Below, piece after piece: positions 24,079 through 24,843 of a DNA stretch of 61,145 bases. The DNA is taken from the UHGV virus genome UHGV-0030196; one strand, written 5' to 3'. The number at the start of each line of letters is the position of its first letter. The first letter of the stretch is position 1. A program made the position numbers and the translations under genes. This DNA is from a virus. Under the pieces are notes generated by a model. It had not been told where the DNA came from. It made no database searches and saw only the letters and a program-made list of their open reading frames with translations.

Positions 24079-24330
24079 ATGAGCGACTGGAATATTGCAG
24101 CCAAAAGTCAGGAAGAACGGGATAAGGTTAACGTTGATCTGGCTGCCAGCGGTGTGGCGTACAAAGAGCGATTGAACATACCTGTCATAGCTGAACAGGT
24201 AGCCCGCGAGCAACCAGAGAATCTGCGCACCTATTTCATGGAACGGCTACGGCACTACCGGCAGTTAAGCCTCCAGTTGCCAAAAGGGAGCGATCCGGTG
24301 TATCAGAACGAGGATGCACCAAAAAAATAA
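24079..24330 (+). CDS. hot: DNA polymerase III theta-subunit homolog (P1 Hot-like)
   Basis: [36 protein letters not shown] aligns to E. coli HolE as recalled. Confidence 0.7.
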
Positions 24331-24415
24331 CGGCAAGATGGGGGAGAAATGTGATTAGCCCCCAGCGTGGCGCGCCTACAAACCCCGCTTTCACAAACTA
24401 TGCCTTTTCAATGTA

Positions 24416-24435
24416 TACTGTATGAATAAACAGTA
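24416..24435 (+). promoter_or_regulatory. LexA box TACTGTATGAATAAACAGTA
   Basis: Perfect CTGT-N8-ACAG with TA-rich spacer, 19 nt upstream of humD ATG. Confidence 0.8.
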
Positions 24436-24453
24436 TCATTAAGGTAAAACGCT

Positions 24454-24843
24454 ATGGGCTTCCCTTCTCCTGCGGCGGATTATGCAGAGAGCCGCATTTC
24501 TCTTGATCAGCAACTAATCAGACATCCTTCCGCGACCTACTTCATGCGGGCGGCAGACAGCCATCACCGTGAGGGAATATTGCAAGGTGCTTTGCTGGTG
24601 GTTGATTCCTCACTTACTCCGGTTGATGGTTCACTGCTTATATGCGCTATGGAGGGTGAATATCGCATAAAGAGATACAGGAAATATCCGCGCCAGCACC
24701 TGGAGGATTTAAGCACCGGGAAGAAAGAGGCGTTACCAGTAGATGACGATGGATGCACGGGCAGTAATGCTGTTTTTGGTGTGATCACTCATGTCATTAA
24801 TGATGCCCGAAGTGGGGAGTTTGATTATAGACCTGTGATTTAA
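24454..24843 (+). CDS. humD: UmuD'-like translesion-synthesis accessory protein (P1 HumD-like)
   Basis: LexA/UmuD peptidase S24-like core; consensus LexA box upstream. Confidence 0.75.
   Translation: MGFPSPAADYAESRISLDQQLIRHPSATYFMRAADSHHREGILQGALLVVDSSLTPVDGSLLICAMEGEYRIKRYRKYPRQHLEDLSTGKKEALPVDDDGCTGSNAVFGVITHVINDARSGEFDYRPVI

What the first reader, a model, noticed from the sequence alone, without database searches (positions are those of the whole stretch)
24079..24843. SOS-wired hot-humD pair
A consensus LexA box (24416..24435) lies 19 nt before humD and just after hot, coupling the element to host DNA-damage signalling independently of the repressor network.
Basis: partly seen in the sequence, partly recalled or inferred. 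Interest (0 to 1): 0.4.

Follow-up and report, generated by a model that had tools for sequence, protein, structure and literature searches.

The report
Known SOS operator before phage humD
A textbook-quality LexA (DNA-damage repressor) binding site sits on the promoter of humD, a phage copy of a host mutagenesis protein, in a P1/D6-type phage-plasmid. The same site is already annotated in phages P1, P7 and phiKO2, so the finding is real but ordinary.

Summary
TACTGTATGAATAAACAGTA lies at 24416..24435, 18 nt (not 19) before the humD ATG at 24454 and 85 nt after the hot stop codon at 24330. It is the only CTGT-N8-ACAG site in the 61 kb window, and it overlaps the -10 hexamer of a good sigma-70 promoter (TTCACA-18-TATACT, 24390..24419).

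The site travels with humD. All 79 related IMG/VR loci that could be scored keep CTGT-N8-ACAG 18-19 nt before humD, whatever lies upstream. All nine more distant phage umuD-like genes checked also have a strong upstream box.

The GenBank records of P1 and P7 annotate this exact site as a LexA site, and the phiKO2 record annotates the equivalent one. NCBIfam has a dedicated HumD model, which this protein matches at 209 bits against a cut-off of 120.

- hot lies upstream of the promoter and the box.
- hot has no LexA site of its own.
- hot is within 2 kb of humD in only 48 of 81 loci.

Independence from the phage repressor is plausible, because no candidate C1 operator lies nearby, but it is untested.

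Verdict: an already known SOS-controlled, pre-truncated UmuD'-like gene without a partner umuC. Interest is low.

The parts
23810..24076 (+). Context only. An 88-aa lipoprotein-like ORF (signal [21 protein letters not shown]) whose stop codon is 2 nt before the hot ATG. It is probably co-transcribed with hot.
   Evidence: ORF list. phrog_7757 at 1.4e-53. A hairpin with a T-run at 23775..23804 lies just upstream (z -5.9).
24079..24330 (+). hot, a homolog of the theta subunit of DNA polymerase III (83 aa). It lies upstream of the LexA-controlled promoter and outside its reach.
   Evidence: PF06440 at 4.6e-34. P1 Hot structure 1se7 at 6.7e-48 over residues 1-83. NF008207 at 104.5 bits against a cut-off of 97.
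24390..24419 (+). Predicted sigma-70 promoter PhumD: -35 TTCACA (24390..24395), 18-nt spacer, -10 TATACT (24414..24419).
   Evidence: Promoter scan, 10 of 12 consensus positions. The hexamers are conserved in RCS47, 813R1, D6 and pF719-4.
24416..24435 (.). LexA (SOS) box TACTGTATGAATAAACAGTA. It overlaps the last 4 nt of the -10 hexamer and the expected transcription start.
   Evidence: The homologous site is annotated as a LexA protein_bind feature in P1 and P7. The CTGT and ACAG arms are invariant in 79 of 79 related loci.
24441..24445 (+). Shine-Dalgarno-like AAGGT, ending 8 nt before the humD ATG.
   Evidence: Read directly from the sequence. Conserved in all seven aligned relatives.
24454..24843 (+). 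humD, a pre-truncated UmuD'-like protein (129 aa). It starts M-GFPSPAADY, which corresponds to Gly25 of E. coli UmuD.
   Evidence: NF051876 HumD equivalog at 209.4 bits against a cut-off of 120, matching 1-129 of 129. 1umu UmuD' aligned from its residue 1. 95.3% identical to P1 HumD.
24852..24884 (.). Intrinsic terminator hairpin with a GC-rich core (GCCCGCC/GGCGGGC) and a T-run. It closes the humD unit and also serves the convergent minus-strand ORF.
   Evidence: RNA fold -23.8 kcal/mol, z -4.76 on the + strand and z -3.13 on the - strand. The minus-strand copy was listed by the terminator scan.

Best explanation
humD is a single-gene SOS unit carried by a D6/P1-type phage-plasmid.

Proposed mechanism:
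- In an undamaged lysogen, host LexA dimers bind the 20-nt box (24416..24435). The box covers the end of the -10 hexamer and the transcription start of PhumD, which keeps RNA polymerase off.
- DNA damage produces RecA filaments, LexA cleaves itself, and the promoter opens.
- HumD is then made and transcription stops at the terminator at 24852..24884.
- HumD starts at the residue that corresponds to Gly25 of UmuD. It is therefore born in the already 'activated' UmuD' form and needs no RecA-mediated cleavage.
- Since the window encodes no UmuC, HumD is expected to work with host UmuC (also LexA-controlled) as a Pol V-type translesion complex.

hot, upstream, is a separate gene. It encodes a homolog of the theta subunit of Pol III and is not under this operator.

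Shown here: the box, its promoter overlap, its conservation, the protein identities and the terminator.

Inferred: LexA binding, SOS induction and partnership with host UmuC. The last rests on published P1 work (McLenigan et al. 1999), which I know from memory and only saw cited.
For: - The box is unique in the window and far from chance.
- It overlaps the -10 hexamer of the only good + strand promoter between hot and humD.
- In 79 of 79 IMG/VR humD loci, CTGT-N8-ACAG is retained 18-19 nt before the ATG. There are 10 sequence variants, and they differ only in the spacer or the outer bases.
- The upstream flank falls into unrelated types, hot-type and lxr-type, while the box stays.
- Nine more distant phage umuD-like genes (35-67% protein identity) all carry a strong box upstream. 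It lies 14-17 nt before the ATG in N15, HK639, Huey, BTP1 and yong1.
- The P1, P7 and phiKO2 records annotate the site as a LexA site.
- PMC9603915 states that humD is LexA-regulated.
- HumD matches the NCBIfam HumD equivalog and aligns to UmuD' from its first residue.
- A strong terminator follows humD.
- No IMS/Y-family polymerase domain was found in any of the 11 long ORFs scanned with Pfam; the 345-aa, 454-aa and 502-aa ORFs are c1, pacA and pacB by similarity to D6.
Against: - The P1 and P7 features are annotations, and the primary papers (PMC94175, PMC523184) are not held.
- No terminator separates hot from PhumD (z 0.29). Read-through from upstream could therefore add LexA-independent humD transcription.
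- My heterology-index matrix was built from boxes recalled from memory and is only approximate.
- The window covers about 61 of roughly 92 kb, so a umuC elsewhere on the element is not formally excluded. None was seen in the parts of the P1 and D6 records that I read.
Confidence: 0.85

Rival explanations
1. The box is a leftover of a divergent control region. Its real target would be a leftward SOS gene (lxr in P1, a dinI-like gene in phiKO2) that has been lost from this element. On this view the box has little effect on humD.
For: The P1 record describes the site as lying 'in the regulatory region of lxr and humD'. phiKO2 has a divergent dinI-like gene sharing the site. lxr is absent here.
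Against: The box keeps a fixed 18-19 nt distance to the humD ATG in 79 of 79 loci, with or without lxr. It overlaps the rightward -10 hexamer. N15, HK639, BTP1 and yong1 have the box 14-17 nt before the umuD'-like gene with no annotated divergent partner.
Confidence: 0.04
2. humD is expressed mainly by read-through from the lipoprotein-hot transcript, during lysogeny or late in lytic growth. The LexA box would then act at most as a weak roadblock, so humD levels follow the phage programme rather than the SOS response.
For: There is no convincing terminator between hot and PhumD (z 0.29). In P1, hot has a late promoter, LPhot. The title of Chikova and Schaaper 2007 says hot is expressed in both lysogenic and lytic stages (seen).
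Against: humD has its own promoter matching 10 of 12 consensus positions, placed exactly under the box. The box and promoter are conserved where hot is absent (P7) or truncated (D6). The two routes are not mutually exclusive.
Confidence: 0.1
3. The box is a chance palindrome in AT-rich intergenic DNA.
For: The loose core pattern CTGT-N8-ACAG alone is expected 0.55 times per window.
Against: The full 20-nt match never occurred in shuffles or simulations. The site is conserved across deep divergence and sits at a fixed position relative to the gene start.
Confidence: 0.01

Closest known systems
Bacteriophage P1 and P7 humD with its upstream LexA site (NC_005856 87545..87564; NC_050152 94404..94423)
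   Same: The gene is the same (95-96% protein identity). The box type is the same, with invariant arms. The window has TACTGTATGAATAAACAGTA and P1 has TACTGTATAAATGAACAGTA. The distance to the ATG is 18 nt here and 19 nt in P1.
   Different: - P1 has the minus-strand gene lxr between hot and humD. P7 has another gene there and no hot. Here hot abuts the humD promoter region, as in RCS47 and 813R1.
- phd-doc follows humD in P1, P7 and D6. Here a convergent 461-aa ORF follows instead.
- The immunity region is D6-type (Dre/rox and a longer C1), not P1-type.
N15 gp26 and phiKO2 gp23: orphan UmuD'-like genes of linear phage-plasmids, each with a LexA site
   Same: The protein is pre-truncated in the same way (it starts MGFPSPA or VGFPSPA). 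There is no adjacent umuC, a strong LexA box lies upstream, and a terminator lies downstream. The phiKO2 record annotates the lexA binding site.
   Different: Protein identity is only 65-67%. The genomic neighbourhood differs (between tail genes and sopB). phiKO2 shares the site with a divergent dinI-like gene.
E. coli umuDC operon (Pol V) under LexA
   Same: The operator type is the same (my recalled umuDC box is TACTGTATATAAAAACAGTA) and the protein fold family is the same (1umu, 5.8e-23).
   Different: - Chromosomal UmuD is made with a 24-residue N-terminal arm and needs RecA-stimulated self-cleavage. HumD lacks that arm.
- umuD is co-transcribed with umuC, whereas humD stands alone.
- HumD-type proteins carry a C-terminal extension (NDARSGEFD..PV) that is absent from UmuD.

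Membership tests
E. coli-type LexA operator (SOS box) | 16-nt core palindrome CTGT-N8-ACAG within the 20-nt consensus TACTGT(AT)4ACAGTA | tested here: met
   The core is exact. The site has 3 mismatches to the 20-mer, all in the central AT-rich spacer.
E. coli-type LexA operator (SOS box) | The position overlaps or abuts the promoter of the regulated gene | tested here: met
   The box starts inside the predicted -10 hexamer TATACT (24414..24419) and covers the expected transcription start. The promoter is predicted, not mapped.
E. coli-type LexA operator (SOS box) | Conserved in orthologous and paralogous loci beyond the background | tested here: met
   79 of 79 close loci keep the box while their flanks diverge. 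Nine of nine distant phage umuD-like genes have a strong upstream box.
E. coli-type LexA operator (SOS box) | Bound by LexA, with the gene induced by DNA damage in a manner dependent on recA and lexA | not testable with these tools
   Only database annotations and a secondary statement in PMC9603915 were available.
HumD family (NCBIfam NF051876; pre-processed UmuD'-like) | Full-length match above the curated cut-off | tested here: met
   209.4 bits against a cut-off of 120, matching 1-129 of 129.
HumD family (NCBIfam NF051876; pre-processed UmuD'-like) | Lacks the UmuD N-terminal arm and the Cys24-Gly25 cleavage site, so that it begins at the Gly25 equivalent | tested here: met
   The alignment to 1umu starts at chain residue 1, and to full-length UmuD (8gmt_B) at residue 25. 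The multiple alignment with a full-length phage UmuD shows the missing 23 residues.
HumD family (NCBIfam NF051876; pre-processed UmuD'-like) | No cognate umuC in an operon with it | tested here: met
   humD is followed by a terminator and a convergent ORF. No IMS domain was found in any of the 11 long ORFs scanned with Pfam. The rest of the element, outside the window, was not seen.
HumD family (NCBIfam NF051876; pre-processed UmuD'-like) | Complements UmuD' in SOS mutagenesis and binds UmuC and RecA filaments | not testable with these tools
   Reported for P1 HumD by McLenigan et al. 1999. I saw that paper only as a citation and could not read it.
Hot / DNA polymerase III theta family | Match to PF06440 and NF008207 above the cut-offs, and near identity to P1 Hot | tested here: met
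   PF06440 at 116.4 bits against 34.6. NF008207 at 104.5 bits against 97. 1se7 at 6.7e-48.
   hot (24079..24330) lies upstream of the promoter and box (24390..24435). No other LexA-like site was listed between 8910 and 24416. hot adjacency is variable, at 48 of 81 loci.

The most novel reading that the evidence does not exclude
LexA may touch this element at a second point. A second box of SOS-box quality (51196..51215; it reads TACTGGATAAAAAAACAGTA on the coding strand) lies inside the D6-type lytic replication gene. If LexA binds there, it could gate lytic replication or origin firing directly. Together with the pre-activated HumD and the theta homolog Hot, that would amount to a phage-plasmid programme that retunes host replication fidelity and its own replication upon DNA damage, bypassing C1.

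The evidence does not exclude this, but it is weak. The second box is lost in relatives with 64-68% protein identity, and hot-humD linkage is variable.
Probability: 0.07. Interest if true: 0.55.

Novelty: already known. Interest (0 to 1): 0.1.

Why it matters
It matters little beyond correct annotation. The locus is one more copy of a well-described module: a LexA-repressed, pre-truncated UmuD'-like gene carried by temperate phages and phage-plasmids. A 3.5-kb query around this locus matched 684 plasmid records in PLSDB.

The module's general relevance is also already recognised. A mobile element can supply an 'already activated' Pol V accessory subunit during the SOS response, and so possibly raise damage tolerance or mutagenesis in its host.

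The useful corrections here are three:
- The SOS control belongs to humD alone, not to hot.
- The spacing to the ATG is 18 nt.
- The unit is bounded by its own promoter and terminator.

Tried and rejected
- Primary papers: I tried to read McLenigan 1999 (PMC94175), Lobocka 2004 (PMC523184) and Chikova and Schaaper 2007 (PMC2072811). None is held. Full-text searches gave only secondary mentions, and the D6-like prophage paper PMC6799933 does not mention humD or LexA.
- P1 late promoter before hot: the -22 element AAGTTACTT occurs no more often than chance and is not near hot. The promoter for hot in this element remains unidentified.
- P1-type C1 operators (ATTGCTCTAATAAATTT): 0 hits with up to 3 mismatches. 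I then derived a candidate D6-type operator motif de novo. It is absent near hot and humD.
- Terminator between hot and PhumD: the local hairpin is no better than shuffled sequence.
- umuC partner: none was found among the 11 long ORFs scanned with Pfam.
- Second LexA-like box at 51196: I followed it into divergent relatives and found it not conserved. I rejected it as part of the main finding.
- Structure prediction and the large protein-database searches were not used, because sequence matches to solved structures and curated families were already decisive.

Full report
**What the window is.** Window 14000..36000 matches phage D6 (about 92-94% identity over roughly a third of the query) and, over shorter stretches, P1, RCS47, SJ46 and P7. 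The D6 immC record places dre/rox, c1, pacB, pacA and lpa on the window at about 28.8-34.6 kb. A 3.5-kb query around the finding matches 684 plasmid records, mostly about 90-kb non-mobilizable E. coli plasmids. The element is therefore a D6-type member of the P1 group of phage-plasmids.

**The observation.**
- The sequence at 24416..24435 is TACTGTATGAATAAACAGTA.
- hot is 24079..24330 and humD is 24454..24843.
- It is the only match in the window to TACTGTATATATATACAGTA with up to 3 mismatches. None of 100 shuffles gave a match.
- It is the only CTGT-N8-ACAG site in the window.
- With an approximate heterology-index matrix built from twenty E. coli SOS boxes that I recalled from memory (so the numbers are indicative only), the site scores 2.6. 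Well-known boxes score 0.1-9.5 on the same matrix. None of 300 first-order Markov simulations of the window produced any site at or below 6.

**Gene identities.**
- The hot product matches PF06440 (4.6e-34), NF008207 (104.5 bits against a cut-off of 97) and the solved P1 Hot protein 1se7 over all 83 residues (6.7e-48).
- The humD product matches PF00717 and UmuD' (1umu, 5.8e-23).
- It matches the NCBIfam equivalog 'HumD family translesion DNA polymerase' NF051876 end to end, at 209.4 bits against a cut-off of 120.
- Its second residue aligns with Gly25 of E. coli UmuD (8gmt_B residues 25-136), so it lacks the N-terminal arm and the cleavage site.

**Anatomy of the unit.**
- The only good + strand sigma-70 promoter between hot and humD is TTCACA (24390)-18 nt-TATACT (24419), matching 10 of 12 consensus positions.
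- The LexA box starts inside the -10 hexamer and covers the expected transcription start. This is the classic geometry for repression by occlusion.
- A Shine-Dalgarno-like AAGGT (24441..24445) ends 8 nt before the ATG.
- After humD there is a strong hairpin with a T-run (24852..24884). It folds at -23.8 kcal/mol with z -4.8, and it also folds on the opposite strand for the convergent ORF.
- Between hot and the promoter there is no structure better than shuffled sequence (z 0.29), so some read-through from hot is possible.
- hot itself is preceded by an 88-aa lipoprotein-like ORF (23810..24076, phrog_7757) whose stop codon is 2 nt from the hot ATG. A strong hairpin with a T-run (23775..23804) lies just before that ORF.
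- I could not find the promoter that serves hot. The P1 late-promoter element is not present.

**Conservation.** In an alignment with P1, P7, RCS47, 813R1, D6 and plasmid pF719-4, the box arms, the -10 region, the Shine-Dalgarno site and the start of humD are invariant. The sequence further upstream splits into two unrelated types: a hot-proximal type as in the window, and an lxr-proximal type as in P1 and P7.

Among 80 IMG/VR loci fetched through the HumD protein, a humD start could be located by pattern in 79. All 79 have CTGT-N8-ACAG ending 18 or 19 nt before the ATG. There are ten sequence variants, and they differ only in the spacer or the outer bases.

Gene order around humD is variable. 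Of 81 loci (the 80 plus the window), hot lies within 2 kb upstream in 48 and lxr is present in 32. phd-doc follows humD in most, though not in the window. Phage D6 itself carries a hot gene truncated by a deletion that ends just before the humD promoter. The box therefore belongs to humD, not to a hot-humD pair.

At greater distance, nine phage umuD-like genes were checked: N15, phiKO2, HK140, HK639, Huey, pAEv1818, BTP1, yong1 and Oslo, at 42-67% protein identity. All have a strong box upstream. In five of them it lies 14-17 nt before an MGFPSPA- or MEFPSPA-type start. Oslo has a full-length UmuD followed by UmuC.

**What is already known.**
- The P1 RefSeq record carries a protein_bind feature 'LexA binding site in the regulatory region of lxr and humD' at the homologous position.
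- The P7 record has 'LexA; regulation of humD expression'.
- The phiKO2 record marks a lexA binding site before its UmuD-like gp23.
- PMC9603915 describes humD as a LexA-regulated SOS gene.
- PMC10695390 lists hot, lxr ('LexA-regulated functions') and humD as non-essential for P1 plaque formation.
- PMC4713147 notes, citing the P1 genome paper, another LexA site at the P1 coi promoter.
- From memory, not read here: McLenigan et al. 1999 showed that P1 HumD complements UmuD' and interacts with UmuC and RecA filaments.

**Repressor independence.** P1-type C1 operators are absent from the window, as expected for a D6-type immunity region. Starting from the region just before c1, I found a dispersed 16-nt motif, TGTTAGAAAWYTAAWT, with 13 copies where 0.44 are expected. 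One copy ends 13 nt before the c1 ATG, and others flank early-looking genes. This is my candidate for the D6-type C1 operator. None lies between 17020 and 28790, so none is near hot or humD. No LexA-like site lies near c1 in this element.

**Partner polymerase.** None of the 11 long ORFs I scanned with Pfam has a Y-family polymerase domain; by similarity to D6, the 345-aa, 454-aa and 502-aa ORFs are c1, pacA and pacB. As in P1, HumD here appears to have no partner umuC and would depend on host UmuC. That is an inference.

**Side observation.** A second box of comparable quality lies at 51196..51215, inside the gene that D6 and plasmid records annotate as 'lytic replication protein'. It is kept in a 95%-identical relative. 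It is destroyed in a 64%-identical E. fergusonii homolog and altered by a 2-nt spacer deletion in another relative. Its function is therefore doubtful.

**Verdict.** The most likely mechanism is ordinary LexA repression of a single-gene humD unit (confidence about 0.85). Experimental proof is not available to me, even for P1. The 'pair' framing is not supported for hot. The feature is already known and widely distributed, and interest is low.

Noticed in passing
window 51196..51215 (inside ORF 50875..51837, - strand): A second LexA-box-quality site lies inside the D6-type 'lytic replication protein' gene. It reads TACTGTTTTTTTATCCAGTA on the + strand and TACTGGATAAAAAAACAGTA on the coding strand, with an approximate heterology index of 3.0. 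It is retained in a 95%-identical relative but lost or altered in relatives at 64-68% protein identity.
   Followed up: partly
window 2617, 2631, 12156, 12807, 17004, 28791, 30192, 34669, 38448, 38604, 39856, 50805, 52011 (16 nt each): The dispersed motif TGTTAGAAAWYTAAWT has 13 copies where 0.44 are expected. One copy ends 13 nt before the c1 ATG (30220). It is a candidate D6-type C1 operator set. P1-type operators are absent.
   Followed up: partly
window 23775..24078: A strong hairpin with a T-run (23775..23804, z -5.9) sits 6 nt before a lipoprotein-like ORF (23810..24076, phrog_7757). That ORF ends 2 nt before the hot ATG. The promoter for hot in this element was not found.
   Followed up: partly
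L005 (phage D6, NC_050154) 2938..3095: The D6 reference genome has a hot gene truncated by a deletion. The deletion joins codons of the hot N-terminus to the sequence just upstream of the humD promoter. The promoter and LexA box are intact.
   Followed up: partly
alignment A3 (HumD homologs; window 24454..24840): In pre-truncated HumD-like proteins, the position of the UmuD catalytic Ser60 is Ser only in the P1/window type. It is Thr in N15, phiKO2 and HK639, and Tyr in yong1. The Lys97 position is Met in HK639 and Arg in yong1. This fits the loss of any need for self-cleavage. All six HumD-type proteins aligned share a C-terminal extension ending in a conserved EFD motif (e.g. NDARSGEFD..PV) that full-length UmuD lacks.
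   Followed up: no
window 24889..26274 (- strand) and 25973..26740 (- strand): Most relatives have phd-doc downstream of humD. This window instead has convergent ORFs of unknown function. The first (phrog_5902) has a weak similarity to terminase large subunits (phrog_2, 1.4e-10). The second belongs to phrog_2326. The listed 461-aa TTG-start ORF is probably over-extended, because pF719-4 annotates a 1095-nt gene there.
   Followed up: no
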